Part shown: positions 44,345 through 59,813 of the stretch, piece after piece
How the letters are laid out: each line of letters starts with the position of its first letter
Numbering within the stretch: the stretch's first letter is position 1
Assembly: GCA_039935455.1 (NCBI GenBank)
Contig: JBDTKF010000146.1
Location: 22,543 to 86,542 of the forward strand
DNA from: Ginsengibacter sp.
GTDB taxonomy: Bacteria > Bacteroidota > Bacteroidia > Chitinophagales > Chitinophagaceae
DNA length: 64,000 bases
Reading direction: 5' to 3'
Translations under genes and position numbers: made by a program
Notes under the pieces: generated by a model
Told to the model about the DNA's origin: nothing
The model's database searches: none
The model's input: only the letters and a program-made list of their open reading frames with translations

Positions 44345-44421
44345 TGGTGACCCTGTCAGGATTCAAACCTGAAACCTCTTGATCCGTAGTCAAGTGCTCT
44401 ATTCAATTGAGCTACAGGGCC
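44345..44421 (-). tRNA. tRNA-Arg(ACG)
   Basis: GGCCCTGTAGCTCAATTGAATAGAGCA-CTTGA-CTACGGA-TCAAG-AGGTTTCAGGTTTGAATCCTGACAGGGTCACCA. Cloverleaf forms, anticodon ACG, CCA is encoded. Confidence 0.97.
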
Positions 44422-44692: not shown

Positions 44693-47665
44693 ATGAAGGT
44701 CTCAAAATATAGCCTCTTTATTATCTGCTTAGGAATTTTATTATCATGCTGGCTATTTATTCGCATTAACGACAATCATAAAAGAACAATCGAAAATTCT
44801 GATCAGATATATTTGGCGCGCCAAAATGTAAATAATATTGATAACATTTTTTTCAAAATCACCCAGCTCGAACTAAACAGCCAGAAATATATTATTACCG
44901 GCGAATCCTCGTTTGAAATCAAGGCGCTGGAAAGAATTGCAGATTTGGAAAATCTGTCAGTTCATTTGGATAGAGTTGCCAATGAAAACCAGTCGGCCAA
45001 AATATTGTTGCCTTTATTACTTGAAAAAACCAACCTCCAAAAACAAATTATTGAAATAAACAAAACTTCAAATAATAAAGCACGATTCATCATTACAGGA
45101 GCAGAAAACACAGCACTCACGGATCAAATCTATCAATCTATTAATAATTTGAAAACGGAATATGGGAACAAAATTGTTTCATTACGCGAAGAAAGGCAGA
45201 TGATGGATTCCAGGAATTTTAAAACAACTGTCCTTATCATCCTCTGCTCAATTGGATTTATTCTTCTGACTCTTACTCTATTAATCAGGAATAGATTATT
45301 GAGAAAACTGGCTCAAACTGATACACACGAAATTGAAGAAAAATATAAAAATCTTATCGAAAATTCAGGAGTTGGTTTGCTAACAACCGATCTGGACGGG
45401 CATATTACTTTCATAAATAAACGGATCACTTCATGTACCGGTTTTAGTAGTGATGAGATTATCGGCAAACACTTTTCTTCCCTGGTGGGGAAAAAATGGG
45501 CTCAGATTATCAACGAAAAATTCAAAAGTCAGTTTCAATCATCTGAATACGAATGGATAATCGAGTATCCACTGAAAGTGAAATCAGGAGACACAATCTG
45601 GGTAGAACAGTCGAATGTCATCTTGTCCGAGAACGGGGTAGCAAAAGGTTTCCAATGTATTTTAAAAGACATCACTGAAAAATTGAAAATCGAATCAGAG
45701 CTAAAAAAAATCGAATCAGAGCGAGCTGAAAATGAGTTCAGACTTCAATCGATCCTTGACAATACACCACGTATTATTTTTATCAAAAACCTGGAAGGCA
45801 AATACTTACTTACAAATGAAAGCTACCGTACAGCATTCAATTTGACAAAAGAGCAAATAATCGGAAAATCTGATTTTGACTTAGTTAAAGAAAGTGAAGC
45901 AATCCGTTATAGCGAGAGTGATCAATATGTAATCAAAGAAAAGAAAAATGTTGAGGTAGAAGAAACCATCTACCTAAATGGAGAGCCTAAGAATCTTCTA
46001 ATCGTTAAATCTCCATTGTTTGATAAGAATAATAACATTTACGGTATTTGCGGAATAGCCAGCGATATCACAGAAAGATATATCTACGGAATGCATCTGA
46101 TCGAGGCAAAAAGAAAAGCTGAACTGGCAGAGCAATTACAGGAACAATTTTTGGCAAACATGAGCCATGAAATAAGAACGCCGATGAATGGGATTATCGG
46201 GATGACCAATAATTTATTGTCGGGCCCGATTACAGATGAGCAAAAAGAATTTTTACAAGTAATCAAAAAATCATCAGATAGCTTGATGGTTCTGATGAAT
46301 GATGTCCTTGATCTTTCTAAAATAAAAGCAGGAAAATTAAGAATCGAAAAAATTGATTTTCGCCTGAGAGAAACGATTGAATATACCATTAGCACTTTCA
46401 GAACTTTGATAAAAGAAAAAGGTCTCGTGCTCCGTGTTTCTGTGGAGCTTGATGTTCCTGATTCATTGACCGGAGATCCCCACCGGCTTAACCAGGTTCT
46501 CAATAACCTTCTCAGTAATGCCATCAAATTTACGCCGCAGGGAGAAATTAAATTTGAGATTAAATTGCTCCACCACTATAATAATGAGGTGCAACTCTCC
46601 TTTTCTGTAACCGATTCGGGAATAGGAATTCCGAAGGAGAAACAACAGGTAATTTTTGATTCTTTTTCACAGGCAGAAACCGGTACTTCGAGAAAATTTG
46701 GTGGTAGCGGACTTGGTTTATCAATTTCCAAAAGATTGATTGAAATGCAAGACGGAAAGATTGAAGTGAACAGTACACCAGGAAAAGGAACTGAATTTTG
46801 TTTTACTATCAATTATGCAATTGCTACTCATACTGTTGCAAAACAATATGACAGTATGAAACAGGAAACCTTTATCCAGGACGGGTTAGCAGGCAAACGA
46901 ATTCTGGTAGTTGAAGATAATGAAGCCAATCAAAAAGTAATTTACCACATGCTGAATAAGGCAGGAATCGAAACGGATCTTGCAGATAATGGACAAGTCG
47001 CAATACAATTATTGGAACAAGGTTTCGAATATGACCTGATTATCATGGATCTTCAGATGCCAGAAATGGATGGTTTTGAAACAACCATTTATCTTCGTCA
47101 GAAATTGAAACTAACGATTCCAATCATTGCGATGACAGCAAGCGCATTAAGAAATGAGAAAATTAAATGCATGGAACTGGGCATGAATGAATATTTGAAT
47201 AAGCCTTTTGTTCCTGCTGATCTTTTTCGGCAATTAAGAAGATTTCTACTAAAGAAAAAAGAGACTACATTGCAAAATAATCAGCCCTTTTCTGAACATG
47301 GAGCAAAAAGGCTTTATAGCCTCAATCATTTGATAGAATTGGATGACATGGATTGTCTTTGTGAGGTATTACAGCTTTTTATAGAATCAACCCCAGTAAT
47401 GATGCTGGAAATAAAAGAAGCAATCCTCAATAAGGATTGGGAGGAGGTTTACAAAAAATCTCATAAAATAAAAAGCAGTATCGGAATTTTACAAATGGGG
47501 GAATTAATGTCAACAATTTCTAAAATAGAATCCGATTCAAAAGAAAGAAGAAATTTAAACGAAATATCAATCAATTATGGAAAGGCAAACGAACTTTTTT
47601 TGAAAACAATTCCTATGATAAAATCAGAACTTCAAAATGCATTGAGTTTGGTTTTGAAAAATTAA
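44693..47665 (+). CDS. Hybrid sensor kinase (TM-CHASE3-like-TM-PAS-PAS-HisKA-HATPase-REC-Hpt)
   Basis: FLANMSHEIRTPMNG, NLLSNAIKFT, DSGIGI, GGSGLGLSI, VVEDNE...MDLQMP, C-terminal HKIKSS (Hpt). Confidence 0.93.
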   Translation: MKVSKYSLFIICLGILLSCWLFIRINDNHKRTIENSDQIYLARQNVNNIDNIFFKITQLELNSQKYIITGESSFEIKALERIADLENLSVHLDRVANENQSAKILLPLLLEKTNLQKQIIEINKTSNNKARFIITGAENTALTDQIYQSINNLKTEYGNKIVSLREERQMMDSRNFKTTVLIILCSIGFILLTLTLLIRNRLLRKLAQTDTHEIEEKYKNLIENSGVGLLTTDLDGHITFINKRITSCTGFSSDEIIGKHFSSLVGKKWAQIINEKFKSQFQSSEYEWIIEYPLKVKSGDTIWVEQSNVILSENGVAKGFQCILKDITEKLKIESELKKIESERAENEFRLQSILDNTPRIIFIKNLEGKYLLTNESYRTAFNLTKEQIIGKSDFDLVKESEAIRYSESDQYVIKEKKNVEVEETIYLNGEPKNLLIVKSPLFDKNNNIYGICGIASDITERYIYGMHLIEAKRKAELAEQLQEQFLANMSHEIRTPMNGIIGMTNNLLSGPITDEQKEFLQVIKKSSDSLMVLMNDVLDLSKIKAGKLRIEKIDFRLRETIEYTISTFRTLIKEKGLVLRVSVELDVPDSLTGDPHRLNQVLNNLLSNAIKFTPQGEIKFEIKLLHHYNNEVQLSFSVTDSGIGIPKEKQQVIFDSFSQAETGTSRKFGGSGLGLSISKRLIEMQDGKIEVNSTPGKGTEFCFTINYAIATHTVAKQYDSMKQETFIQDGLAGKRILVVEDNEANQKVIYHMLNKAGIETDLADNGQVAIQLLEQGFEYDLIIMDLQMPEMDGFETTIYLRQKLKLTIPIIAMTASALRNEKIKCMELGMNEYLNKPFVPADLFRQLRRFLLKKKETTLQNNQPFSEHGAKRLYSLNHLIELDDMDCLCEVLQLFIESTPVMMLEIKEAILNKDWEEVYKKSHKIKSSIGILQMGELMSTISKIESDSKERRNLNEISINYGKANELFLKTIPMIKSELQNALSLVLKN

Positions 47666-47680
47666 AAGAAAACACTACCT

Positions 47681-48079
47681 ATGAAAATATTAATTGCTGA
47701 TGATGAAATGATCACGCGAAAAATTATTGAGCTCAGATTAAAAAAAGACGGCCATGAGGTCATCGTAACTTCCAACGGTCAGGAGGCTTTGGAGCAAATC
47801 AGTTTACAAGATCCAGATATGATCATTGCAGATATCATGATGCCATTTACCTCAGGGCTGGAAATCGTAAGTGTTGTAAAACGAGGTGGTCATCATCGTA
47901 AAGTGCCAATAATAATCCTGTCGTCAATGGGCCAGGAAAACGTGGTGCTGGAAGCATTTAATCTTGGAGCAGATGATTATATTACAAAACCATTTAGTCC
48001 TAACGAACTTTCGATGCGTGTAAAACGACTAACTCCTGCAGCAACTAATCTATTTGTAAAAATTAACGAAAGAACATAA
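47681..48079 (+). CDS. Single-domain response regulator
   Basis: IADDE, ADIMMP, LSS, ITKPF; no output domain. Confidence 0.93.
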   Translation: MKILIADDEMITRKIIELRLKKDGHEVIVTSNGQEALEQISLQDPDMIIADIMMPFTSGLEIVSVVKRGGHHRKVPIIILSSMGQENVVLEAFNLGADDYITKPFSPNELSMRVKRLTPAATNLFVKINERT

Positions 48080-48121
48080 TTGCTCATAAACTTGCAATCC
48101 GTATCGCTATAATTTAAATAC

Positions 48122-49261
48122 ATGCTCACGTTCCTAAACTTTAATTTAAGTAGCATTGGTAAATCAATTAATTATTTACGCGAAAATATTTTTACCGAAC
48201 ATGTATTGTTTGATATAACTATATTTTTTGCCGCAGCAATAATTGGTATCACCGGATTTATTTTTGTATATCTTTTTAGAAAAGAAAAAATCGCAAAAAG
48301 AAAAAACATTCTTCAAGCGTCCATTGATAATTTTATTGGTGAAATTGCGATCTCTGAATCAGAAAATGAATTGATCCAGGTGGTTTCAAACCAGGATTAT
48401 CAAAATCTGCTGCTGCAAGTACAACATAGCAAATTCTATCGCAAAATGCTGATTAATGAATTATCCGAAACCTCGAGAAAATTCAGAGGATCTACAATGA
48501 CAAATGTTTTATGGCTTTTTAAGAAATTGGATTTGGAGAAACAATTATTAAAGAATTTTGACAAAAAGAAATGGCATAAAAAAGCAAAAATCGTTCAACA
48601 GATTTCTTACTTGCATCTAAATAGTAACATTGAAAAAATATTCTCTTTAACGAATGACCGTAATGAATCATTACGTATGGAAGCGCAAATTGCAATTGTG
48701 AAAATGACTGGTTTCGATGGCTTAAATTTTTTAGATAATGTCATTTATCCGATCTCGGAATGGCAGCAGCTCAGATTAATAGAAGAACTTTCAAGCCATA
48801 TTGAACCTAAAGCCGGGAATATTATTGAGTGGTTGAAATCTAATAATCTAACCGTTGTAAACTTTGCATTACGTCTTATAGAAATTTACAGACAATATGA
48901 TTTTTATAATGAAGTTGCCATTTGTCTTTCGCATCCGTCCATTTCTATATGCAGTAGAGCTGTCATAACAATAAGCACGATCAGTAAAGAGACTACTGCA
49001 GATCTTTTAATAGCCCATTATGATACTTACAACGAGTCCACGCAAATAACAATTTTAAAAGTTTTGCAGGTTATAGGAACAGAAAACCAATTTCCTTTCT
49101 TACTATCAATTTTAAATCACCACGATGACACTTATAAACTCCAGGCAGTGAAAGCAATTACAACCATCAGCAAAGCCGGAATTGAAAAAATTGAAAAGGT
49201 CATCGATAAAAGCTTGTTTCCATGGAACATTATTTTGTCTCAAATTAAAAACGTTGCATGA
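48122..49261 (+). CDS. Membrane-anchored HEAT-repeat protein
   Basis: One TM near the N-terminus; LRMEAQIAIVK, ISEWQQLRL, SNNLTVVNFALRLI and repeated helical pairs. ATGA overlap with the GT2 gene. Confidence 0.8.
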   Translation: MLTFLNFNLSSIGKSINYLRENIFTEHVLFDITIFFAAAIIGITGFIFVYLFRKEKIAKRKNILQASIDNFIGEIAISESENELIQVVSNQDYQNLLLQVQHSKFYRKMLINELSETSRKFRGSTMTNVLWLFKKLDLEKQLLKNFDKKKWHKKAKIVQQISYLHLNSNIEKIFSLTNDRNESLRMEAQIAIVKMTGFDGLNFLDNVIYPISEWQQLRLIEELSSHIEPKAGNIIEWLKSNNLTVVNFALRLIEIYRQYDFYNEVAICLSHPSISICSRAVITISTISKETTADLLIAHYDTYNESTQITILKVLQVIGTENQFPFLLSILNHHDDTYKLQAVKAITTISKAGIEKIEKVIDKSLFPWNIILSQIKNVA

Positions 49262-50676
49262 ATATTACTGATCACATATTTCATTTTCTCGCATTAGGAA
49301 TCCTTATATACTCTGTTACGCTGCTTTTATTTTACATGCTGATTATCATTTATTCGATTTCTGAAATGAAACTTTACTTCCGCAAAAGCAGTTTCACTGA
49401 TTATAATATTATTGCTTCTTCAGAGTTTGCGCCAACAGTAAGTATCCTGGCACCGGCCTATAACGAAGAAAAGAATATTATCGAAAATGTGCGCTCATTG
49501 CTTGCAGTTCATTACAATAATATAGAGCTGATTGTTATCAACGATGGGAGCAAGGATAATTCTCTGCAACAATTGATCGCAGCATATAACCTGGTGAAAG
49601 TTCCTTTTCTTGTAAATGAGAAAATCAAAACAAAACCTATTCTCGGAATTTACAAAAGCAGCAATCCTGTCTATCACAAATTGATTGTTATAGATAAAAT
49701 CAACGGTGGAAAAGCAGATGCGTTGAATACAGGAATAAATGTTGCTACCAATAAATATATTGTTTGTATTGATGCAGATTGCGTTTTAGAACAGGATGCG
49801 ATGCTTAAATTAATTAAGCCCTTTTTGGAAAAAACAAATAAGCGCGTGATTGCAACCGGTGGCGTAATCAGAATCGCAAACTCCTGTGAAATCAGGAATG
49901 GAAAACTTATAAAAGTTCATTTGCCCAGGCAGATTTTGCCACGCATGCAGGTTCTTGAATACATACGTGCTTTTATGTTGGGAAGAATGGCCTGGAGTCG
50001 GATGAACGGCCTATTGATTATATCAGGAGCTTTCGGTGCTTTTGATCGTGAAATAGCGCTAAAAGCCGGTGGTTATAATCCTGAAACAGTTGGAGAAGAT
50101 ATGGAGCTGATTGTTCGTATGAGACGTTATATGCACGAGCACAACCTACCTTATAAGGTTCCCTTTATCCCTGATCCTTTATGCTGGACAGAAGCGCCTG
50201 CCTCTTATAAAATTTTAGGAAGGCAACGCAATCGCTGGACCCGTGGTACAATCGAAACTTTGAAAATTCATAAGAAAATGTTCTTCAATTACCATTTCGG
50301 TATATTAGGAATTCTGAGTTACCCTTATTGGTTCTTTTTTGAATTACTGGCCCCTATGATTGAATTTTCAGGGTTCGCACTTTTAGTGATTTTCGCTATG
50401 ATGGGTTTCGTCGCGTGGCATTTTTTTCTCTATCTCCTTGCATTCATCTTATTTTTTGGATATCTATATTCTGTATTTGCAATCTTAGTCGAGGTGCTCA
50501 CTTTCAATCAATATAAAAAGCGATCTGATATTTTAAAACTAATCCTGGTTGCATTTGCCGAACCGATAATTTTTCATCCGTATGTAGTATTGGCGGCGGT
50601 TAGAGGAAATATAGATTTTTTAAGAAAACGCAAGTCCTGGGGCGAAATGACAAGACAAGGGTTTAACAGTAAATAA
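49258..50676 (+). CDS. Processive GT2 glycosyltransferase (PgaC/IcaA/YaiP-like)
   Basis: PAYNEE, DGSKD, GGKADALN, DAD, EDMEL, QRNRW (QxxRW); one N-terminal and several C-terminal TMs. Confidence 0.92.
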   Translation: MNITDHIFHFLALGILIYSVTLLLFYMLIIIYSISEMKLYFRKSSFTDYNIIASSEFAPTVSILAPAYNEEKNIIENVRSLLAVHYNNIELIVINDGSKDNSLQQLIAAYNLVKVPFLVNEKIKTKPILGIYKSSNPVYHKLIVIDKINGGKADALNTGINVATNKYIVCIDADCVLEQDAMLKLIKPFLEKTNKRVIATGGVIRIANSCEIRNGKLIKVHLPRQILPRMQVLEYIRAFMLGRMAWSRMNGLLIISGAFGAFDREIALKAGGYNPETVGEDMELIVRMRRYMHEHNLPYKVPFIPDPLCWTEAPASYKILGRQRNRWTRGTIETLKIHKKMFFNYHFGILGILSYPYWFFFELLAPMIEFSGFALLVIFAMMGFVAWHFFLYLLAFILFFGYLYSVFAILVEVLTFNQYKKRSDILKLILVAFAEPIIFHPYVVLAAVRGNIDFLRKRKSWGEMTRQGFNSK

Positions 50677-50695
50677 CCGATAATAGTTTACCAGT

Positions 50696-52735
50696 ATGAG
50701 TAATTCAAAAAACTTTTTTCAAGAATATCCAAAAAAGATTCTAACTGCTTTAAGTTCATATTGCAGACTTTCTATTTTATTTTTAATTCTTTTATTCTTT
50801 ATCGCTGTATATGAAATTTTTGCCAGCCTGAACTCTCCTGTAGAATCACTTCCGATGGCAACAATAGCTGGTTCTATATTCATGAATTATCTCTATTATT
50901 GGTTGAAAACATTTGTCTTTTTTCTGATTCCTTATCTTATTCTTCATACTCTACTTAATCGGCTGGCTCAGTTTTTTTATATCTTTTTTGCAACGATCCT
51001 CCTTCTATTGCAGATTGCATTGATCCAATATTTCAATAAATCAATGGTTCCTTTAGGAGCTGATTTGTTTGCTTACTCTTTGACTGACATCAAACAAACG
51101 TTGGGTGCTTCAGGCGGAATAAGTATAATACAAATCATCTCTTTTGTATTTGCAATCGCTTTTTCATTATTCGTTTTTATCTATGTTTCAAAGAAAGTTA
51201 ACGTCCATAAATATGTGGCTCTTACTGTAACATTTCTTTCCATTTTTATTTTAGCTACCGGATTTTCTTTTTCCAACGTTGATGCTCTGAAAACAGAATA
51301 TGCCCGGACTTTGGTTCTGAATAAATCCGACTTTTTTCTCACACAATCTTACCATTATTTTTATCCTGAAATTGTAGAAACAGATATTTATTCTGACAGC
51401 TATTCAGGAGATTTTGGGAATGATCACTTAAAGGTGGAAGATTTTGTTTATGTAGATGAAGAGAAGTTTCCATTCCTACATAAAGATGAAACTCCGGATG
51501 TTTTATCTCCTTTTTTTAATCATAGTGATCAAAAACCAAACATCGTAATTATACTTGTGGAAGGCCTTGGGCGCGCATTTACGAATGAAGGAGCGGTGCT
51601 GGGGAATTTTACTCCATTCCTCGATTCTCTTTCAAAACAAAGTCTTTACTGGAACAATTTTTTAAGCTCTGCTGGTAGAAGCTTTGCAGTACTGCCCTCA
51701 GTTTTAGGATCTCTTCCCTTCGCCAAAAATGGGTTCAATGAATTAGGCGAGCATATGCCAAAGCATCTTTCTTTGACAAGTATCACACGCCACAGTGGAT
51801 ATAAAAGTGCTTTTTTTTACGGTGGAGATTCGAGATTTGATAACATGAATCTTTTTATGAAAAAAGATGGCGTTAATAATATTTATGATGAGGAAACTTT
51901 TCCCGTCGGATTCACGAAACTTCCTGCACATAACGGTTTTACCTGGGGTTATGGAGATAGTGAATTATTCAGGAGATACTTGCAACTGGAGCCCGACAAT
52001 GATGGCCAGCCTAAATTGAATGTGCTTTTTACCGTGGCGACTCATAGTCCTTTTTTGCTCAACAACCAGGAAAAATATAATCACTTATTTCAGGAAAGAA
52101 TGGATGAACTGAAATTTTCAGCAAACAAAAAATTGGCTTATCAGCAATTCCAGCCGCAATATGCAAGTATCTTGTATTTGGATGAGGCTATTAAAACTTT
52201 TATCAATAATTACAAACAACGTAAGGATTTTAAGAACACCATTTTTATTATAACGGGAGATCATCGGATGCCTGAAATTCCTATGCTGACAAAAATAGAT
52301 CGTTATCATGTTCCATTAATTATCTATTCTCCTCTTCTAAAACGAACAGCTGCTTTTTCTTCAATATCTTCTCATTTTGACATAGCACCGAGCCTGCTTG
52401 CTTTCCTGAATAATTCTTATTCGATAGAAAAGCCAACCCTCGCAAGCTGGATGGGAAGAGGTTTAGATACTTCACGATCCTTCTCCAACTCCCATCAATA
52501 TCCATTAATGCAAACAAAAAATGATGTAGTGGATTTCGTACAGGGAATGACGCATTTTAATAATAAATCGATTTTTTCTATTACCTCCGGGATGGATGAG
52601 GAACAAATAAATGATAAGGCCATATCTGATCAATTAATCGATGGTTTTGATCGCTTCAAAGTAAGGAATGAAAAATTCATTCAGGGCGCGGGGTTGATTC
52701 CCGATTCTATTTACGTAAAATATTTTCCCCACTAA
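50696..52735 (+). CDS. LTA-synthase-family / sulfatase-fold membrane phosphotransferase
   Basis: About five N-terminal TMs, then PNIVIILVEGL, AGRSF, TVATHSPF, YLDEA, TGDHR, VPLIIY, HFDIAPS. Confidence 0.85.
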   Translation: MSNSKNFFQEYPKKILTALSSYCRLSILFLILLFFIAVYEIFASLNSPVESLPMATIAGSIFMNYLYYWLKTFVFFLIPYLILHTLLNRLAQFFYIFFATILLLLQIALIQYFNKSMVPLGADLFAYSLTDIKQTLGASGGISIIQIISFVFAIAFSLFVFIYVSKKVNVHKYVALTVTFLSIFILATGFSFSNVDALKTEYARTLVLNKSDFFLTQSYHYFYPEIVETDIYSDSYSGDFGNDHLKVEDFVYVDEEKFPFLHKDETPDVLSPFFNHSDQKPNIVIILVEGLGRAFTNEGAVLGNFTPFLDSLSKQSLYWNNFLSSAGRSFAVLPSVLGSLPFAKNGFNELGEHMPKHLSLTSITRHSGYKSAFFYGGDSRFDNMNLFMKKDGVNNIYDEETFPVGFTKLPAHNGFTWGYGDSELFRRYLQLEPDNDGQPKLNVLFTVATHSPFLLNNQEKYNHLFQERMDELKFSANKKLAYQQFQPQYASILYLDEAIKTFINNYKQRKDFKNTIFIITGDHRMPEIPMLTKIDRYHVPLIIYSPLLKRTAAFSSISSHFDIAPSLLAFLNNSYSIEKPTLASWMGRGLDTSRSFSNSHQYPLMQTKNDVVDFVQGMTHFNNKSIFSITSGMDEEQINDKAISDQLIDGFDRFKVRNEKFIQGAGLIPDSIYVKYFPH

Positions 52736-53165
52736 TTCTTAAAAAAGACAAAACCAATAAAAGGTGAATCTTTATAATTAGATTTGACAGAGAGTTGAAA
52801 AAGTTTAGTGAACCAGAAGTCATTAAACTTTTTTTTGCCTTATCAAAAAGCAAAAAATGCTGCGGAATTGTTGTAGATTTTTAACCATTAGTTTGAGACG
52901 AATTTATGATATGGTTCAAATGCAGTTAAGGTGATTTCCGTTCAACCTTGATAATCTATCTCAGGAAAGACGTCCAATAAACGATTTTTAGACCTTGAAG
53001 AATAATCTATAAAATTAACAGCCCAAACATATTTGTTATCTGGCTGTTAGATTGCATCAATTAAATTGTTTGGCAGGTTGTATTATCCATCAGAGTTTGC
53101 ATACTCTTCAAAATCAACATTACTAATAAAAGGTTTTATTTTGAAATGCCAGCAACCATCCATCA

Positions 53166-54332
53166 CTACTTTTCTTTTTGTAATGATTGATAATAATCCG
53201 AAACGATTTCTGTTAGAAGTGGATTGTAAAAGTTCCAGAAGAATTTACGGGGATTATCCAATTCACCTGACGGATAAAATAAACGATTAAGAACACCAAT
53301 TCCTCTAAAATAGGAGCTCTTCATCGAGATTGGATTATCACAAAAGTTTCCAGAGAAATAATAGAATTTGTAATCCGCATTGCGATGAACTAATATGGCT
53401 GGAAAGCTAACTGGCAGATTGTTTTTCTTCAATATTTCTTTGCCTGCTGCATTCACATCCAATTTAAATGTTGCAATTGGCTCATTTATTGAAGGATCAT
53501 ATTTCATCACTTCAAACCAGTACCCATAGGCAGTCTTTGCAGGAATGCCGTATTTTTTCTGAATTGAATCAGTCGCATAAATATATGGTAAAGCAGACGT
53601 CAATTCATTTCCTTGTTCCAAAACAATCATTTTTTCATCGGTGTTTATGTAAACAATACCCTGACGATGAAATGGCCATTTTCCATTATTAGATTTTTTA
53701 TAATTATCAATAATCCATTGGGGTAAATCGGGATTATTTACCGTATCAAGCGAAGAAAAATACCGCCCAATCCAACCACTCCATTTTAAGCCAAAAAGAT
53801 TTTCAAAATCTCCACGGATCTCATCAGAAGTAGGAGTACCTATTGTATTGAATTCAGAAATGATCAATTTATGCTTCGCCTTCATCATCGTAAGCAATTG
53901 AATATCTTGTTCGCTCAAACCACCATAAATTTTCCCCGCACCAATAGCTTTCCTTTTTTTATACCAATCCTTTCTATATACGCCATAGGTGTCAGTATAA
54001 TAGACTAAATCCGCATCATTGCTCAGTTTGTCCAACATCGGGGTAGAAAATCTTTCTAATCCTTTCAAACGAAATTTTTCGTCCTTCATTGGAAAAAACC
54101 CAAAATAATCATTGGTATTTTTATAAAGAGTAGTCTTCGATTTTGTAAATCGAAGGTTATTAAGCACCCAGGTAAATGAAGCGTGTTGCTCTGCATCAGT
54201 CATCTCAACCGTTTTATCAACTATTACGGCCACCATCTTCTTTTTAGAAGTAAATATCCATCCAAGCCACATTAGAAGTGGCAATAAGATAATGATAATT
54301 AAAACTATAGCAATCGTCTGTTTTCGAGTCAT
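53166..54332 (-). CDS. Membrane-anchored periplasmic protein of unknown function
   Basis: Single N-terminal TM then about 360 aa soluble domain with DKTV, DTYGVY, SEFN, WSGWIGRYF and YYFSG motifs; 2 bp from the upstream gene. Confidence 0.75.
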   Translation of the reverse strand: MTRKQTIAIVLIIIILLPLLMWLGWIFTSKKKMVAVIVDKTVEMTDAEQHASFTWVLNNLRFTKSKTTLYKNTNDYFGFFPMKDEKFRLKGLERFSTPMLDKLSNDADLVYYTDTYGVYRKDWYKKRKAIGAGKIYGGLSEQDIQLLTMMKAKHKLIISEFNTIGTPTSDEIRGDFENLFGLKWSGWIGRYFSSLDTVNNPDLPQWIIDNYKKSNNGKWPFHRQGIVYINTDEKMIVLEQGNELTSALPYIYATDSIQKKYGIPAKTAYGYWFEVMKYDPSINEPIATFKLDVNAAGKEILKKNNLPVSFPAILVHRNADYKFYYFSGNFCDNPISMKSSYFRGIGVLNRLFYPSGELDNPRKFFWNFYNPLLTEIVSDYYQSLQKEK

Positions 54333-54334
54333 AA

Positions 54335-55582
54335 TTAGAATCTTCTTTGATAACCCACACTAAAAAGATACTGGTTGCCGGTTACTTTTGGTAAATATTC
54401 CTGTTGCAAATATGAGAAACTAAATAAGATCATATTGAATGTTTTGAAAGTATTTCGATAATTTGCTGAGACATGATATGATTTCAATTTGTAAGCATTT
54501 GCAAGTTGTACATTATTTGCAGTTTCATCCGGTGAAATTCCAGTGCCTAAGCCTATACCGAAATAATCTGTTCCCTTAAAATAGTATCTTGATAGAATGC
54601 TATAAGAATTGGATACAGATTTTGTTGCTGGTGTAATGTATGTTCTGAAATTGAACCAGTAGTTTTTGTAATATTTTCCCAGTGAAGCTGTATAAATCCA
54701 GGTATTACCACTAAAATGAAGATAGCGGAAACCTGCTTCTCCTTCGAAGCTTTTAGGCAGATTTGCATACAAAGAAAAGCCACCACGATATTGAGGAAAG
54801 ACGCTACTTTTATCGGAGATACCCGCGTTCACGTAACTGTAAAAAGTTTTCGAAATCCGGGGATAAGCATCCACTTCAAACTGAACCGCGTTTGTTCTAA
54901 ACCGGTTTGCATAATTTACGCGTCCTACAAATGATCCCGCCTTAGTTCCTCGAGAATATTCGAGGCTTACAATATGCCATGGATCATCGAATTGTTTATC
55001 GAAAATTGCCAAATCATAACTAATGCTTAATTTATTTTTAGCACTGAGATCTTTTATTTTTTCCAAAAGAGAACGCGCTTCGGCATTTTTGGGATCTATT
55101 TTTAACAAGACAATTAGATTGCTGTCAGCTTCATTAAATCTTTCCAAGTCGATTAAACTTTTCGTTTTTTTAAGAAGGATCACCTTTGATTGTGGATGAA
55201 ATACGAGTGCATTTTCAGCAATCTTTAAAGCTTCTTCCGGTCGATCATTCCAATATTCAAGATCCGCATAAGCGGAAGCGGCATCTTCATTGTCCGGCTG
55301 GCGTTCTAATACTTGTTTGAAACTTTCCCGTGCACTGTCAGTCTTGTCCCACCAGGTATAAACCCGGCCCAAAAAAATCTGGATGTCGGCATAATCAGGA
55401 CTAATCACCAATGCTTGTTTACTCAATTCAGTTGCAAGTTTGTAATCTTTTTTGTCAAATGCAGCAGTCCTTGCCAATTGAAAAAGTTCATCAGAAGAAA
55501 GTCGCTCCTGGCCTAAAACAAAATGAGGGACTATCGAAGCAGCAAAAAGGATTAAAAGAAATAATTGTTTTTTAAAGATCAT
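54335..55582 (-). CDS. TPR + YaiO-family outer-membrane beta-barrel
   Basis: Signal peptide; TPR motifs (PDYADIQIFLGRVY, PDNEDA, DPKNAEA); barrel WHIVSLEY, DAYPRI, FPQYRGG; C-terminal GYQRRF. Confidence 0.85.
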   Translation of the reverse strand: MIFKKQLFLLILFAASIVPHFVLGQERLSSDELFQLARTAAFDKKDYKLATELSKQALVISPDYADIQIFLGRVYTWWDKTDSARESFKQVLERQPDNEDAASAYADLEYWNDRPEEALKIAENALVFHPQSKVILLKKTKSLIDLERFNEADSNLIVLLKIDPKNAEARSLLEKIKDLSAKNKLSISYDLAIFDKQFDDPWHIVSLEYSRGTKAGSFVGRVNYANRFRTNAVQFEVDAYPRISKTFYSYVNAGISDKSSVFPQYRGGFSLYANLPKSFEGEAGFRYLHFSGNTWIYTASLGKYYKNYWFNFRTYITPATKSVSNSYSILSRYYFKGTDYFGIGLGTGISPDETANNVQLANAYKLKSYHVSANYRNTFKTFNMILFSFSYLQQEYLPKVTGNQYLFSVGYQRRF

Positions 55583-55680: not shown

Positions 55681-55703
55681 CATATTGCAACCAAATATTG
55701 AAA

Positions 55704-56177
55704 ATGAAAATTTATTTTTGGACAGTCGGAAAAGCGCATGAGACCTACGTAAAAGATGGAATCGAAACTTTTACAAAACGTATTTCTCATTATTATCCCA
55801 TTGAATGGAAAATTTTTCCATCCGCAAAAAATGCCGCACAGTTAACAGAAGAAGAAATAAAACATGCCGAAGGAATTCCATTGTTAAGTGCTTTACAAAA
55901 TGATGATGTGCTGGTTGCTTTGGATGAAAACGGAAAGCAATGGAACTCTATAGAATTATCGGCGTTCATTCAAAAAAAAGCAAATGAAAGTTCTAAAAAT
56001 ATTATTTTTCTAATTGGTGGCGCTTATGGACTACATGACAATATTCTAAAAAGATGTAACGAGAAATGGAGTCTTTCCAGATTGGTTTTCCCTCATCAAT
56101 TGGTTCGTTTGATTCTTGCTGAACAAATCTATCGCGCCTGCACAATACTTAAAAACGAAAAATATCATCATGCTTAG
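55704..56177 (+). CDS. rlmH: 23S rRNA (pseudouridine1915-N3)-methyltransferase
   Basis: ALDENGK, FLIGGAYG, SLSRLVFPHQLVRLILAEQIYRA, KYHH. Confidence 0.96.
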   Translation: MKIYFWTVGKAHETYVKDGIETFTKRISHYYPIEWKIFPSAKNAAQLTEEEIKHAEGIPLLSALQNDDVLVALDENGKQWNSIELSAFIQKKANESSKNIIFLIGGAYGLHDNILKRCNEKWSLSRLVFPHQLVRLILAEQIYRACTILKNEKYHHA

Positions 56178-56211
56178 TTTTTATGTAGGTTTGATGCTTT
56201 AAATAAAATAA

Positions 56212-56868
56212 ATGTCCGTCACAATAATCATCATCGTCGTAACAGTTATCGTTTCCATCATTGCATTCCGTTCACAAAAAGTAATGGATGATCTGATATT
56301 TTATCCAACTTCGATCACAGAAAAAAATCAGTATTACCGCTTTATTTCTTATGGATTTATTCATGCTGATATGTCCCATTTATTTTTCAACATGTATGCA
56401 TTTTATTTATTCGGAGGTGCATGTGAAAATTCATTTATGGAAATTTTTGGTCTCTATGGAAAAACCTACTATTTGCTGATGTATTTTTTAGCGTTAATTG
56501 CCTGTGTAATTCCTGATTTCAATAAACACAAAACAAACCCGGGATACAGAAGCCTGGGTGCTTCAGGAGCCGTGTCAGCAGTAGTTTTCGCTTATATTTT
56601 ATTTCAGCCTTTGCAAGGAATTGGTTTGTTATTTATTCCCATCTTTATTCCGGGATTTTTATTTGGAATAATCTTCCTGGTCGTTTCCTTTTTTTTAGGG
56701 AGAAAAAGCGGATCCAGAATCAATCATTCTGCGCATATTTGGGGGGCCATATTTGGTATTATTTTCCTGCTTTTATTCAGCCAGTTATTTTCAGACTATC
56801 CGTTGCTGGATAATTTTATAAGGTCTGTAAAAGAATTGGATCTTCGCCATATTTTTACGACTTATTGA
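56212..56868 (+). CDS. Rhomboid intramembrane serine protease
   Basis: YRFISYGFIHADMSHLFFNM, GASGAVS, NHSAHIWG. Confidence 0.93.
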   Translation: MSVTIIIIVVTVIVSIIAFRSQKVMDDLIFYPTSITEKNQYYRFISYGFIHADMSHLFFNMYAFYLFGGACENSFMEIFGLYGKTYYLLMYFLALIACVIPDFNKHKTNPGYRSLGASGAVSAVVFAYILFQPLQGIGLLFIPIFIPGFLFGIIFLVVSFFLGRKSGSRINHSAHIWGAIFGIIFLLLFSQLFSDYPLLDNFIRSVKELDLRHIFTTY

Positions 56869-58234
56869 ATTCAATTGTAAGCATATTTTTTGTCTGACCT
56901 GACAATTTGAACCGGTTGTCAATTCTTTTACCAATTATCCAGATAATTCTTTTATTGCTTTCAATAATCCAGGTTTTTTCTTTCTCAGTTGAAGACAATT
57001 TCTGATCAATGAAAAATTTACTGAGTTTCTTCTTTTTCTGCATTCCCAACGGATAAAAATAATCGCCCTGTTTCCACCTTCGTAATAATAACGGAAAAGA
57101 AATATCCGTTGCATCAAGTTTAGCCGTATTTTCAGAAGCAAAGTCTTTAAGTGGCGACATGTCTGTAACTGCTTCACTTTTAAAATTCAATTTCCCTAAT
57201 TCAAATGTGATTTGTTTGTCAGCTTCATCAATCAATATGTTACTGGCAATTAGATTATTAAGTGGCGCAATGATAAGCCAGTTGCGGTTCCTGATAACTT
57301 TATGCGAAGCCGATGAAATATATCTCCCGGTTTCTCTTTTTAATAAATTGACCACTTCTTCTGTTTGATGCGCCGTAAAATCATACTCTTTTATAATTTC
57401 ATAGATTATCGTTTTTAAAGGTTTCGCTTTCAATAATTTTATAACAGGAATATGAACTTCACTTCCTTTTCTCTCTAATAATTTTTCTTTATGAAGATTA
57501 ATAGATTGATGGTATAATGAATCTATTTCTTTAAACCTTTCAAGGTTATTCAATAAATTTTCCGACACCTGTGGAAATATTTTTTCGATTGATGGAATCA
57601 ATTGATGACGGAAATAATTGCGGGTATACTTATCAGAATTATTGGAAGAATCCTCAACAAACTGAAGATTATTTTCTTTGATGAATGAAATTATTTCTTC
57701 TCTTCTTGCGAATAACAAGGGTCGTATAATTTTCCCCTGCTTTGATAAAATTCCTTGCAAACCCTTTATTCCTGTGCCTTTGAAAAAATTCATCAAGAGT
57801 GTTTCTATATTGTCATCTGCATGATGAGCGGTCAGAAGATAGGCTGAGTTTTGAAATTTTAGATCAGGATCCTGGTTTACATTTTCTTTATTCTGTAATA
57901 ATTCATCGAACCATTGATACCTTAATTCCCGTGCAGCTACCTGAATTGAAACTTTATTTGTTTTTGCATAATCATTTGTATCAAATTTTTTTACAAATAA
58001 TTTCATCTGATATTTCTCTGCCAATTCTCGTACAAACCTTTCATCACGTTCACTCTCCTCACCTCTTAACTGAAAATTACAATGCGCAATTTCAAAATGA
58101 AATCCAGCCTGAAAACACAGCTCGCACAAAGTGACAGAGTCAGCACCACCACTAACTGCAAGCAATAAATAATCTTTTCTTTGAAAAAGGTTTTGTTGCT
58201 CTATATTCTTTGAAAATCGATTTAATAACGACAT
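56855..58234 (-). CDS. tilS: tRNA(Ile)-lysidine synthetase
   Basis: AVSGGADS, AARELRY, TAHHADD, RPLL, RNYFRH, RRWKQGD...KKKLSKFFID. Confidence 0.96.
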   Translation of the reverse strand: MSLLNRFSKNIEQQNLFQRKDYLLLAVSGGADSVTLCELCFQAGFHFEIAHCNFQLRGEESERDERFVRELAEKYQMKLFVKKFDTNDYAKTNKVSIQVAARELRYQWFDELLQNKENVNQDPDLKFQNSAYLLTAHHADDNIETLLMNFFKGTGIKGLQGILSKQGKIIRPLLFARREEIISFIKENNLQFVEDSSNNSDKYTRNYFRHQLIPSIEKIFPQVSENLLNNLERFKEIDSLYHQSINLHKEKLLERKGSEVHIPVIKLLKAKPLKTIIYEIIKEYDFTAHQTEEVVNLLKRETGRYISSASHKVIRNRNWLIIAPLNNLIASNILIDEADKQITFELGKLNFKSEAVTDMSPLKDFASENTAKLDATDISFPLLLRRWKQGDYFYPLGMQKKKKLSKFFIDQKLSSTEKEKTWIIESNKRIIWIIGKRIDNRFKLSGQTKNMLTIEFNKS

Positions 58235-59807: not shown

Positions 59808-59813
59808 CGATAC

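What the first reader, a model, noticed from the sequence alone, without database searches (positions are those of the whole stretch)
44693..55582. Candidate uncharacterised exopolysaccharide synthesis, modification and export system under phosphorelay control
Seen: two convergent, tightly packed arms. The plus arm is hybrid kinase, stand-alone REC, TM-HEAT protein, QxxRW GT2 synthase (ATGA-coupled to HEAT) and LTA-synthase-like transferase. The minus arm is a TPR+barrel exporter and an unknown TM-anchored periplasmic protein (2-bp gap). Knowledge: a processive GT2 plus a TPR/beta-barrel is the architecture of synthase-dependent systems (Pga, Bcs, Pel, Alg, Nfr/Yai). Those normally need c-di-GMP and encode a recognisable deacetylase or hydrolase; neither a GGDEF/PilZ domain nor such an enzyme is visible here. 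Inference: a distinct system making a phospho-decorated surface polymer, possibly GlcNAc-based, for biofilm formation or as a phage receptor. Similar clusters probably exist in other Bacteroidota, but I know of no characterisation.
Basis: partly seen in the sequence, partly recalled or inferred. Interest (0 to 1): 0.8.

Follow-up and report, generated by a model that had tools for sequence, protein, structure and literature searches.

The report
Response-regulator-linked polysaccharide synthase and export cluster
A soil Chitinophagaceae bacterium carries a conserved, uncharacterised gene set that most likely makes, decorates and exports a surface polysaccharide, and it is linked to a stand-alone phospho-receiver protein rather than to the c-di-GMP sensors that accompany the known systems of this kind.

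Summary
All seven ORFs lie at the stated coordinates with the stated domains.

The two arms belong together. Of 50 related Bacteroidota loci with full flanks, 43 carry all six non-kinase genes, in at least seven gene orders. No other gene family is shared.

Natural fusions link the parts physically:
- GT2 fused to the LtaS-like enzyme
- HEAT–GT2–unknown protein
- unknown protein–HEAT
- unknown protein–SPOR

This changes the role of the "unknown periplasmic protein". It is a periplasmic partner of the inner-membrane synthase, not only of the barrel.

The barrel protein models as 5 TPRs plus a 14-stranded barrel. Its best structural matches are the exporters BcsC and PelB.

REC–HEAT–GT2–unknown also occurs in a clostridial genome, and HEAT–GT2 with the unknown domain in three other Firmicutes. 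This core is older than the Bacteroidota porin and LtaS-like add-ons. The hybrid kinase is accessory, adjacent in about a third of loci.

No PilZ or intact GGDEF domain, and no deacetylase or hydrolase, is conserved. I found no paper on the system.

Polymer chemistry, the phospho-decoration and activation by the receiver protein remain inferences.

Verdict: a real, uncharacterised variant of synthase-dependent exopolysaccharide systems.

The parts
44693..47665 (+). Membrane hybrid histidine kinase: TM1, a ~150-aa CHASE3-like periplasmic sensor, TM2, 2 PAS, HisKA, HATPase, REC, Hpt. It is the likely cognate phosphodonor for the stand-alone REC. It is an accessory part, not core.
   Evidence: Pfam and NCBIfam domains. 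Translation shows the H-box SHEIRTP, the receiver Asp in IIMDLQMP and the Hpt His in SHKIKSS. Weak CHASE3 match, E = 6e-4. TM scan. Present next to REC in 27 of 81 loci, and it moves together with REC in 8 rearranged loci.
47681..48079 (+). Stand-alone receiver domain (single-domain response regulator, 132 aa). Proposed post-translational activator of the synthase.
   Evidence: PF00072, 95 bits, no output domain. D8, D51 and K103 are invariant in 68 orthologues. Conserved in 63 of 81 loci, and found beside HEAT-GT2 in the Firmicute Andreesenia.
48122..49261 (+). Inner-membrane protein with one N-terminal TM helix and a cytoplasmic HEAT/ARM-repeat domain. Proposed regulatory subunit of the synthase and docking site for REC~P.
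   Evidence: HEAT_2, E = 7e-7. One TM helix followed by a basic stretch. Stop codon overlaps the GT2 start (ATGA). Fused to GT2 in Heliophilum and Trichococcus, and to the 388-aa family in P0248 (hhalign 98%, E = 6e-14).
49258..50676 (+). Processive, membrane-embedded GT2 polysaccharide synthase. It is PgaC-like but not a PgaC orthologue.
   Evidence: PF00535, PF13641 and PF13632. DxD, GED and QRNRW motifs invariant in 47 orthologues. 28% identity to E. coli PgaC (E = 9e-33), 25% to YaiP, none to NfrB. TIGR03937 scores 131 bits against a cut-off of 422.
50696..52735 (+). Multi-TM protein (about 5 TM helices) with a periplasmic alkaline-phosphatase-superfamily (LtaS/OpgB-like) domain. Proposed to transfer a phospholipid head group onto the nascent polymer.
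   Evidence: PF00884, 114 bits. Weak hits to OpgB (45 bits) and LtaS (36 bits). Best PDB match is 3lxq (VP1736), E = 2e-18, followed by LtaS. E289, H449 and D522-H523 conserved, and S324 invariant, in 52 orthologues. Fused in frame to GT2 (~1200-aa ORFs), Pfam-confirmed in L019, L047, L064 and L078; seven further loci show the same long ORF.
53166..54332 (-). 388-aa protein of a new family: N-terminal TM anchor plus an aromatic-rich periplasmic alpha/beta + beta domain. Proposed periplasmic subunit that bridges the synthase to the porin.
   Evidence: No Pfam, NCBIfam or PDB sequence hit. 871 homologues, all named 'hypothetical', and 707 representatives at 50% identity. AF2 model pLDDT 72.5, pTM 0.75, with weak GATase1/ThuA/GH42-domain-B-like fold matches. 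Fusions to GT2, HEAT, SPOR and a 690-aa Firmicute domain. Adjacent to the barrel gene in 78 of 81 loci.
54335..55582 (-). Outer-membrane exporter: signal peptide, 5 TPR motifs (10 helices), and a YaiO-family beta-barrel with 14 predicted strands.
   Evidence: PF19413, 245.7 bits; TIGR04390, 188 bits. AF2 model pLDDT 89. Best Foldseek PDB matches are BcsC 9b8a (E = 1.8e-10) and PelBC 9h80 (E = 1.3e-7).

Best explanation
The six genes from REC to the TPR-YaiO barrel, plus an accessory hybrid kinase in this lineage, encode one envelope-spanning, synthase-dependent polysaccharide machine of an uncharacterised family.

Shown by sequence and comparative evidence:
- A processive PgaC-like GT2 with all catalytic motifs.
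- Three membrane partners that are fused to the GT2 or to each other in other genomes: a cytoplasmic HEAT-repeat protein, a periplasmic 388-aa protein of a new family, and a periplasmic LtaS/OpgB-like enzyme.
- A TPR + 14-strand YaiO barrel that resembles BcsC and PelB.
- A phospho-acceptor-competent stand-alone receiver that stays with the HEAT-GT2 pair across two phyla.

Inferred mechanism:
1. The kinase senses a periplasmic or PAS-borne signal and passes phosphate His->Asp->His(Hpt)->Asp51 of the receiver.
2. REC~P binds the HEAT subunit or the GT2 and switches on polymerisation. This is the role that c-di-GMP with PilZ, PgaD or MshEN plays in the Bcs, Pga and Nfr systems.
3. The GT2 polymerises a UDP-sugar and threads the chain through its own channel.
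4. The 388-aa protein receives the chain in the periplasm.
5. The LtaS-like enzyme adds a phospholipid-derived head group (phosphoglycerol or phosphoethanolamine type).
6. The TPR-barrel exports the product.

The sugar is unknown.
For: Domains and motifs.

Synteny: the six families are the only ones shared by most of the 81 loci. 43 of 50 full-flank loci have all six, in at least 7 gene orders, including single-strand HK-REC-HEAT-GT2-YaiO-unknown in Leeuwenhoekiella.

Fusions:
- GT2-LtaS-like ORFs of ~1200 aa
- Heliophilum HEAT-GT2-unknown, 1377 aa, whose GT2 part is 39% identical over the full length
- unknown-TM-HEAT
- unknown-SPOR, which places the domain in the periplasm

The topology is self-consistent: there is a basic cytoplasmic tail after the last GT2 TM helix, and then the anchor helix of the unknown protein.

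Cross-phylum core: Andreesenia has REC-HEAT-GT2-unknown. Brassicibacter, Paenibacillus and Heliophilum have HEAT-GT2 with the unknown domain. C. beijerinckii and Trichococcus have HEAT-GT2 with the related 712-aa family instead.

Barrel model: best matches are BcsC and PelBC.

LtaS-like enzyme: metal ligands conserved.

[quoted passage not shown] The same paper states that synthase-dependent pathways frequently use c-di-GMP (PMC12802240).
Against: - There are no experimental data of any kind, and no RNA data. Only soil-metagenome DNA runs hold the sequence.
- No REC-HEAT or REC-GT2 fusion was found, and a multimer prediction could not be run, so the REC target is a guess.
- REC is missing next to HEAT-GT2 in some Firmicutes. 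In Heliophilum it is replaced by a pseudo-receiver (Glu for Asp) with a degenerate GGDEF.
- 7 of 50 full-flank loci have the barrel-unknown pair without GT2 within 10 kb.
- The nucleophile of the LtaS-like enzyme is not securely aligned, and the glycerophosphate-binding residues of LtaS are not conserved. It could carry out different chemistry.
- The predicted barrel has 14 strands, against 16 (from memory) in BcsC, PgaA and PelB.
- The model of the unknown protein is only moderately confident, and its fold matches are weak (TM-score 0.25-0.4).
Confidence: 0.6

Rival explanations
1. It is a divergent poly-beta-1,6-GlcNAc (Pga/Ica-type) system. The GT2 is a PgaC orthologue, the TPR-barrel does the job of PgaA, and the product is PNAG.
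For: PgaC is the closest characterised relative of the GT2: 28% identity over 324 aa, E = 9e-33. The best NCBIfam hit is TIGR03937. The two share a C-terminal W-x4-R-G tail motif. There is also a weak PgaA TPR hit.
Against: TIGR03937 scores 131 bits against a cut-off of 422, and TIGR03939 (PgaA) scores 34.7 against 366. No PgaB-like deacetylase/hydrolase or PgaD occurs in the window or in 80 related loci. The profile of the 388-aa family does not match PgaB. The barrel is YaiO-type, not PgaA-type. The conserved partners (HEAT, the 388-aa family, LtaS-like) are foreign to Pga.
Confidence: 0.15
2. The GT2 and the OpgB/LtaS-like enzyme make a periplasmic or membrane-anchored glycan rather than a secreted exopolysaccharide. 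The product would be OPG-like, phosphoglycerol-substituted, or teichoic-acid-like. The barrel pair would serve another purpose.
For: The best NCBIfam hits of the transferase are OpgB (45 bits) and LtaS. GT2 is fused to it in several genomes. There is a weak MdoH hit for the GT2 C-terminus. In 7 of 50 loci the barrel pair sits apart from GT2.
Against: The barrel-unknown pair stays with the GT2 arm through at least 7 rearrangements, and it lies in one operon with GT2 in Leeuwenhoekiella. The unknown protein is fused to GT2 or HEAT elsewhere. The barrel model resembles the exopolysaccharide exporters BcsC and PelB. The LtaS-like gene is absent from the Firmicute versions and from L093, so it is an add-on and not the core.
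Confidence: 0.12
3. The stand-alone REC does not act on the synthase. It is a phosphorelay intermediate or phosphate sink that feeds a transcription factor elsewhere, and the synthase is controlled transcriptionally or by another ligand bound by the HEAT protein.
For: No REC-HEAT or REC-GT2 fusion was seen. In 8 loci REC sits with the kinase next to the barrel gene rather than next to HEAT. Several Firmicute HEAT-GT2 loci lack REC. Some relatives carry GGDEF-containing partners.
Against: REC is retained in 63 of 81 loci even where no kinase is adjacent, and it occurs beside HEAT-GT2 in another phylum. No DNA-binding regulator is conserved in the cluster. [quoted passage not shown]
Confidence: 0.2
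4. The two convergent arms are neighbours by chance and are functionally unrelated.
For: They are on opposite strands, separated by a 430-bp gap. A few genomes have the barrel pair alone.
Against: 43 of 50 full-flank loci keep all six genes in many different orders. No other gene family is shared. There are cross-arm protein fusions: GT2-unknown and unknown-HEAT.
Confidence: 0.02

Closest known systems
E. coli PgaABCD (PNAG synthase-dependent system)
   Same: A membrane-embedded processive GT2, which is the closest characterised relative (28% identity). A small membrane partner is needed for activity (PgaD there, the HEAT protein here). A TPR + beta-barrel outer-membrane exporter.
   Different: There is no PgaB deacetylase/hydrolase, no PgaD and no c-di-GMP module. 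The barrel is of the YaiO family with 14 predicted strands. Extra subunits are present: HEAT, the 388-aa family and the LtaS-like enzyme. The equivalog cut-offs are missed by a wide margin.
E. coli Bcs cellulose system with BcsG (pEtN-cellulose)
   Same: A GT2 synthase with a TM-anchored periplasmic partner (BcsB there, the 388-aa protein here). A multi-TM alkaline-phosphatase-superfamily enzyme that decorates the nascent chain from a phospholipid donor (BcsG). The TPR-barrel exporter BcsC is the best structural match of the barrel protein.
   Different: No sequence similarity to BcsB and none significant to BcsG, and only E = 1e-5 to BcsA. There is no PilZ, BcsE, BcsQ, BcsR or BcsZ. The transferase is LtaS/OpgB/VP1736-like rather than BcsG-like.
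E. coli yaiO-yaiX-yaiP-yaiS cluster and the NfrA/NfrB/YbcH system (the 'Nfr/Yai' type)
   Same: The barrel belongs to the YaiO family, and in E. coli yaiO lies near the GT2 gene yaiP. The window GT2 is 25% identical to YaiP (E = 7e-10). Nfr likewise combines a GT2, a TPR-barrel and a small periplasmic protein (PMC8669469).
   Different: E. coli YaiO has no TPR domain, and its cluster carries an acyltransferase and a deacetylase that are absent here. NfrB shows no significant similarity; by published description (PMC8669469, not re-examined here) it carries a c-di-GMP-binding domain that the GT2 here lacks. YbcH does not match the 388-aa family. I found no paper that treats YaiO as an exopolysaccharide exporter.
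Myxococcus xanthus EpsW-EpsZ (a single-domain response regulator that activates an EPS enzyme)
   Same: A phosphorylated stand-alone receiver is proposed to switch on polysaccharide synthesis post-translationally by protein-protein contact (PMC12802240).
   Different: That is a Wzx/Wzy pathway, and the target is the initiating phosphoglycosyl transferase. Here the pathway is synthase-dependent and the proposed target is a HEAT subunit or the GT2. The interaction here is inferred, not shown.
Bacillus subtilis ydaJKLMN (unknown EPS, c-di-GMP receptor YdaK)
   Same: A Firmicute GT2-based operon with large membrane proteins of unknown function (YdaL, YdaN). The Firmicute relatives of the present system pair HEAT-GT2 with a ~712-aa protein that sources name 'family 2 glycosyl transferase'.
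   Different: The yda operon has no HEAT protein or REC, according to the papers read.

Membership tests
Synthase-dependent exopolysaccharide secretion systems (general class) | Membrane-embedded processive GT2 with D, DxD, (T/G)ED and QxxRW motifs | tested here: met
   The Pfam GT2 families, with DAD, GED and QRNRW invariant in 47 orthologues.
Synthase-dependent exopolysaccharide secretion systems (general class) | Outer-membrane TPR + beta-barrel exporter encoded with the synthase | tested here: met
   TPR + YaiO barrel. The AF2 model best matches BcsC and PelBC. It co-occurs with GT2 in 43 of 50 loci.
Synthase-dependent exopolysaccharide secretion systems (general class) | c-di-GMP receptor (PilZ, a degenerate GGDEF I-site, MshEN, or a PgaC-PgaD interface) | tested here: not met
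   None of the seven proteins has a PilZ, GGDEF or MshEN domain, and no such family is conserved across the 81 loci. A cryptic binding site cannot be excluded.
Synthase-dependent exopolysaccharide secretion systems (general class) | Periplasmic polymer-modifying hydrolase, lyase or deacetylase | tested here: not met
   No such domain is present or conserved. The only periplasmic enzyme is LtaS-like. Some Firmicute relatives fuse the 388-aa domain to an uncharacterised 690-aa domain.
PgaC/IcaA PNAG synthase (TIGR03937 equivalog) | Score above the curated cut-off of 422.3 bits | tested here: not met
   130.9 bits. 28% identity to E. coli PgaC.
PgaA export porin (TIGR03939) | Score above the cut-off of 366.65 bits | tested here: not met
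   34.7 bits, in the TPR region only.
YaiO family outer-membrane beta-barrel (PF19413 / TIGR04390) | Match above the curated cut-offs across the whole domain | tested here: met
   PF19413: 245.7 bits against 23.9, covering model positions 1-173 of 173. TIGR04390: 188.3 bits against 32.
LtaS lipoteichoic acid synthase / OpgB phosphoglycerol transferase | Equivalog-level similarity (NF053595 cut-off 970; PRK03776 cut-off 574) | tested here: not met
   35.7 and 45 bits. Only superfamily-level similarity (PF00884).
LtaS lipoteichoic acid synthase / OpgB phosphoglycerol transferase | N-terminal multi-TM domain plus an extracytoplasmic alkaline-phosphatase-fold domain with metal ligands (Glu, Asp-His) and a Thr/Ser nucleophile | tested here: inconclusive
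   About 5 TM helices. E289, H449 and D522-H523 align with LtaS E255, H416 and D475-H476 and are conserved. The nucleophile is not securely aligned, and invariant S324 is the candidate. LtaS W354 and R356 are not conserved.
NfrB-type c-di-GMP-activated synthase | GT2 homologous to NfrB with a C-terminal MshEN c-di-GMP-binding domain | tested here: not met
   BLASTP E = 0.8 against NfrB. The GT2 ends 20 residues after its last TM helix.
Two-component phosphorelay with a single-domain response regulator | Hybrid kinase with H-box His, receiver Asp and Hpt His, plus a stand-alone REC with the DD / D / (T/S) / K acceptor residues | tested here: met
   Pfam HisKA, HATPase, REC and Hpt. The motifs are read in the translation. 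REC D8, D51 and K103 are invariant. Phosphotransfer itself is not testable here.

The most novel reading that the evidence does not exclude
HEAT-GT2, with the 388-aa and/or 712-aa extracytoplasmic partner, defines a previously unrecognised, cross-phylum family of synthase-dependent polysaccharide machines in Bacteroidota and Bacillota. [quoted passage not shown] That would be a phosphorylation-based counterpart of c-di-GMP control. The Bacteroidota version would add a YaiO-type porin, giving the YaiO family its first functional assignment, and an LtaS-like enzyme that phospho-decorates the polymer.
Probability: 0.4. Interest if true: 0.8.

Novelty: new variant of a known kind. Interest (0 to 1): 0.7.

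Why it matters
The well-studied synthase-dependent exopolysaccharide systems (cellulose, PNAG, alginate, Pel, Nfr) are switched on by c-di-GMP. This view is stated in PMC12802240.

This cluster offers a testable case in which a conserved stand-alone receiver protein takes that place. From my own knowledge, c-di-GMP signalling is sparse in this phylum.

The cluster also does four other things:
- It assigns a likely role to the YaiO barrel family, which in E. coli serves mainly as a PCR marker.
- It defines two protein families without any annotation: the 388-aa family (871 homologues in the first search; 707 representatives at 50% identity) and a family of more than 5,000 Firmicute proteins of about 712 aa.
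- It points to a second example, after BcsG, of a phospholipid-head-group transferase coupled to a polysaccharide synthase. Here the two are even fused.
- It is widespread in soil and aquatic Chitinophagaceae, Sphingobacteriaceae and some Flavobacteriaceae, where the genetics of matrix polymers are poorly known.

Tried and rejected
- Sequence searches of the 388-aa protein and its profile against Pfam (even at E <= 10), NCBIfam and PDB gave nothing.
- Profile comparison with E. coli BcsB, YbcH and PgaB gave nothing.
- Foldseek on its model gave only weak GATase1/ThuA/GH42-domain-B/GIFT-like matches. These are too weak to assign a function.
- The 690-aa Firmicute extension has no Pfam or PDB hit. 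Its 'VAEFG' motif only hints at a clan GH-A hydrolase, and that hint rests on my own knowledge.
- The Rfam scan of the whole window found only a tRNA, so no riboswitch precedes the cluster.
- Promoter and terminator scans were not above the shuffled background.
- A search for RNA-seq runs found only soil-metagenome DNA runs.
- I looked for REC-HEAT fusions. The long HEAT ORF in L046 has no REC.
- I checked whether loci that lack GT2 carry a substitute synthase. They do not: the neighbours are unrelated (ABC/MacB, his genes, restriction-type genes).
- The clostridial cellulose synthase Ccs is a different system, with a BcsA-like GT2 carrying PilZ.
- The link of the 712-aa family to B. subtilis YdaN could not be tested.
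- Literature searches for YaiO or HEAT together with an exopolysaccharide role found nothing relevant.

Full report
**1. The observation**

The plus arm holds five genes:
- 44693-47665 (990 aa)
- 47681-48079 (132 aa)
- 48122-49261 (379 aa)
- 49258-50676 (472 aa)
- 50696-52735 (679 aa)

The minus arm holds 54335-55582 (415 aa) followed, after 2 bp, by 53166-54332 (388 aa). A 430-bp gap separates the two convergent arms.

Pfam and NCBIfam give these assignments:
- 990 aa: 2 PAS, HisKA, HATPase, REC and Hpt.
- 132 aa: REC only.
- 379 aa: HEAT_2, in a protein with one N-terminal TM helix.
- 472 aa: the GT2 families, with a partial Chitin_synth_2 match.
- 679 aa: PF00884 (sulfatase/LtaS-like) behind about five TM helices.
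- 415 aa: TPR plus the YaiO barrel (PF19413, 245.7 bits; TIGR04390, 188 bits).
- 388 aa: no hit at all.

The HEAT stop codon overlaps the GT2 start as ATGA.

The kinase has two TM helices that flank a ~150-aa segment with a weak CHASE3 match (E = 6e-4). Its H-box His, receiver Asp and Hpt His can all be read in the translation.

None of the seven proteins has a GGDEF, EAL, PilZ, deacetylase or glycoside-hydrolase domain.

**2. Are the two arms one system?**

The 388-aa protein has 871 homologues, all named 'hypothetical' where a name is given. The named ones come from Chitinophagaceae and Sphingobacteriaceae.

A scan of one genome per GTDB species with a profile of this family returned 185 confirmed matches. 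I kept the 80 best loci with up to 10 kb on each side.

tblastn of the window's proteins against these loci and an unsupervised clustering of all their ORFs agree. The families shared by most of the 81 loci are exactly the six non-kinase genes:

| Family | Loci (of 81) |
|---|---|
| 388-aa unknown | 81 |
| YaiO barrel | 78 |
| LtaS-like | 69 |
| HEAT | 64 |
| REC | 63 |
| GT2 | 54, plus 11 copies hidden in fusion ORFs |
| Hybrid kinase | 27 |
| Next most common family | 16 |

Of 50 loci with complete flanks, 43 carry all six genes.

The gene order is not fixed:
- The window's convergent layout occurs in 42 loci.
- In 8 loci HK-REC has moved to lie upstream of barrel-unknown.
- In Leeuwenhoekiella, HK-REC-HEAT-GT2-barrel-unknown form one co-directional string.
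- In Desertivirga all six genes are collinear.
- In three Mucilaginibacter-type loci the GT2 arm lies on the other side.

Proximity that survives this much rearrangement is strong evidence of functional coupling. In seven full-flank loci the barrel-unknown pair, with or without the LtaS-like gene, lies among unrelated genes. The two modules can therefore be separated in a genome.

**3. Fusions show a physical complex and fix the topology**

In 11 loci the GT2 and the LtaS-like enzyme appear as one ~1200-aa ORF, and Pfam confirmed both domains in the four tested (L019, L047, L064 and L078, from Sediminibacterium, Daejeonella lutea and an unclassified Bacteroidetes MAG).

A profile search of 1.84 billion representative proteins found 707 members of the 388-aa family. 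Sixteen of the best 150 are much longer than 388 aa. Among them:
- P0382 from Heliophilum fasciatum (1377 aa) reads TM-HEAT, then GT2, then a linker, a TM helix and the 388-aa domain. Its GT2 part is 39% identical to the window's GT2 over the full length (E = 1e-112).
- P0248 and P0289 (~750 aa) read the 388-aa domain, a TM helix and a HEAT domain. The match to the HEAT profile has hhalign probability 98% and E = 6e-14.
- P0257, P0295 and P0276 carry a C-terminal SPOR domain. From my own knowledge, SPOR domains bind peptidoglycan.
- P0344 is a tandem duplication of the 388-aa domain.

Three points place the 388-aa domain in the periplasm and the HEAT domain in the cytoplasm:
- The GT2 ends in a basic tail (RKRKSWGEMTRQGF) after its last TM helix.
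- The 388-aa domain always follows one further TM helix.
- SPOR domains are extracytoplasmic.

The LtaS-like catalytic domain would lie in the periplasm, behind about five TM helices. In Bacteroidota it is always encoded with the porin (78 of 81 loci), which fits a bridging role.

**4. The individual parts**

*GT2.* The DxD, GED and QRNRW motifs and the surrounding blocks are invariant in 47 orthologues. Against E. coli proteins the best relative is PgaC (28% identity, E = 9e-33). YaiP follows (25%, E = 7e-10), then BcsA (E = 1e-5). NfrB does not match. The PgaC equivalog model scores 131 bits against a cut-off of 422. The GT2 is therefore a PgaC-like synthase but not a PgaC orthologue, and the sugar cannot be inferred.

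*Barrel protein.* An AF2 model (pLDDT 89) shows ten TPR helices and 14 beta-strands. Its best PDB matches are the cellulose exporter BcsC (9b8a, E = 1.8e-10, covering both TPR and barrel) and the Pel exporter PelBC (9h80, E = 1.3e-7).

*LtaS-like enzyme.* Its closest solved relative is the uncharacterised Vibrio protein VP1736 (3lxq, E = 2e-18). LtaS and LtaP follow at E ~ 1e-5. The residues that align with the LtaS metal ligands (E255, H416, D475, H476) are conserved in 52 orthologues. Ser324, in an S-x-x-G-R motif, is invariant and is the likely nucleophile. The glycerophosphate-binding Trp and Arg of LtaS are not conserved. From my own knowledge, the multi-TM + alkaline-phosphatase architecture is typical of enzymes that transfer a phospholipid head group (LtaS, OpgB, EptA, BcsG). 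That is the basis for proposing decoration of the polymer. It is an inference.

*388-aa protein.* The AF2 model (pLDDT 72.5, pTM 0.75) has a confident alpha/beta + beta core. It resembles GATase1-like folds only weakly: GH42 domain B, ThuA-like proteins and the IFT52 GIFT domain. Its many invariant aromatic residues would suit carbohydrate binding. No similarity to BcsB, YbcH or PgaB was detectable.

*REC.* D8, D51 and K103 are invariant in 68 orthologues, so it is a competent phospho-acceptor without an output domain.

**5. Distribution beyond Bacteroidota**

| Organism | Gene content |
|---|---|
| Andreesenia angusta (Clostridia) | REC, HEAT, GT2, [388-aa domain + 690-aa domain], then an SLH-GH16 protein |
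| Brassicibacter mesophilus | [388 + 690], HEAT, GT2 |
| Paenibacillus cellulosilyticus | [388 + ~650-aa extension], HEAT, GT2 |
| Clostridium beijerinckii | stand-alone ~712-aa protein, HEAT, GT2 |
| Trichococcus ilyis | ~712-aa protein, an ODP-GGDEF-REC protein, a HEAT-GT2 fusion |
| Heliophilum fasciatum | a protein with degenerate GGDEF (EGPKF) and a receiver with Glu for the acceptor Asp, then the HEAT-GT2-388 fusion |
| A second Bacteroidota lineage (L093) | 388-SPOR convergent with REC-HEAT-GT2; no porin, no LtaS-like gene |

The 690-aa domain belongs to a family of more than 5,000 Firmicute proteins. They have no Pfam domain and are often misnamed 'family 2 glycosyl transferase'.

The ancient core is therefore HEAT-GT2 with an extracytoplasmic partner, usually accompanied by a receiver-domain protein. 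The TPR-YaiO porin and the LtaS-like enzyme are Bacteroidota additions, and the hybrid kinase is mostly a Chitinophagaceae addition.

**6. Most likely mechanism**

The model is set out in the Best explanation section. The shown elements are the domain content, motif conservation, gene linkage, fusions and predicted topology. Every functional step is inferred: signal to kinase to REC~P, REC~P to HEAT/GT2 activation, polymerisation and translocation, periplasmic hand-over, phospho-head-group transfer, and export.

The regulatory step has a recent precedent. In Myxococcus the phosphorylated single-domain regulator EpsW directly activates the phosphoglycosyl transferase EpsZ. The authors contrast this with synthase-dependent pathways, which 'frequently' use c-di-GMP (PMC12802240).

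**7. Comparison with known systems and novelty**

The cluster fits the general class of synthase-dependent systems: a GT2 synthase plus a TPR-barrel. It fails the membership tests for Pga, Bcs, Nfr, LtaS and OpgB, and it lacks the c-di-GMP receptor and the periplasmic hydrolase or deacetylase that are typical of the class.

Its barrel is a bona fide YaiO-family member. In the searchable literature YaiO appears almost only as an E. coli PCR marker.

The operon survey of synthase-dependent systems by Bundalovic-Torma et al. does not mention Bacteroidetes, HEAT or response regulators in its main text (PMC7112194). The clostridial Ccs system is a different, BcsA/PilZ-type machine.

I therefore rate this a new variant of a known kind, resting on two unannotated protein families. 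The organism is an uncultured soil Chitinophagaceae near Hanamia and Ginsengibacter. No expression data exist for it.

**8. Limits**

- No experiment and no multimer prediction could be run.
- The polymer, its decoration and its biological role are unknown.
- A single GH16 neighbour in one Firmicute is the only hint about the sugar (a beta-glucan), and it is not conserved.
- The possible kinship with the B. subtilis yda operon is untested.

Noticed in passing
window 44345-44421 (-): tRNA-Arg (anticodon ACG) lies 271 bp upstream of the hybrid kinase start. It is the only Rfam or ARAGORN hit in the whole 64-kb window.
   Followed up: yes
window 40885-43035 (+): A 716-aa protein with a C-terminal Por_Secre_tail (T9SS sorting domain) and no other Pfam hit. 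It marks the organism as a T9SS-bearing Bacteroidota.
   Followed up: partly
window 58464-60488 (-), 60492-61355 (-): A second, classical two-component pair (HisKA/HATPase kinase plus an OmpR-type regulator) with a porin-like gene downstream. It is not conserved with the cluster outside the closest relatives.
   Followed up: partly
window 55698-58234: The housekeeping genes rlmH-like SPOUT methyltransferase, rhomboid protease and tilS flank the barrel gene. This synteny is kept only in the four closest loci, L001-L004.
   Followed up: yes
P0348/P0391 (Andreesenia angusta), P0331, L094 8001-10136, L095 8001-10193: A family of more than 5,000 Firmicute proteins of about 712 aa. It has no Pfam domain and is misannotated as 'family 2 glycosyl transferase'. 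It is encoded next to HEAT-GT2 pairs and is sometimes fused to the 388-aa domain. Its 'VAEFGVPSS' motif recalls clan GH-A hydrolases. It may be related to B. subtilis YdaN, which I could not test.
   Followed up: partly
L085 7821-10001 (Heliophilum fasciatum): The gene that overlaps the start of the HEAT-GT2-unknown fusion encodes a degenerate GGDEF (EGPKF), a pseudo-receiver with Glu in place of the acceptor Asp, and a DivIVA-like coiled coil. It looks like a constitutively 'on' or rewired version of the regulator.
   Followed up: partly
L090 12229-13764 (Andreesenia angusta): An SLH-anchored GH16 enzyme sits directly downstream of the REC-HEAT-GT2-unknown operon. From my own knowledge GH16 enzymes act mostly on beta-1,3 and beta-1,3-1,4 glucans or galactans. 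This is a possible clue to the polymer, but it is not seen in Brassicibacter.
   Followed up: partly
L091 2337-8774 (Brassicibacter): A MoxR-DUF58-BatA-VWA (Bat-like) operon lies immediately upstream of the 388-aa fusion gene, and its last protein has a GATase1_like domain. The 388-aa model also has a GATase1-like fold. This may be coincidental.
   Followed up: no
L046 16284-17160: This locus has two tandem stand-alone REC genes upstream of an unusually long (555-aa) HEAT protein.
   Followed up: partly
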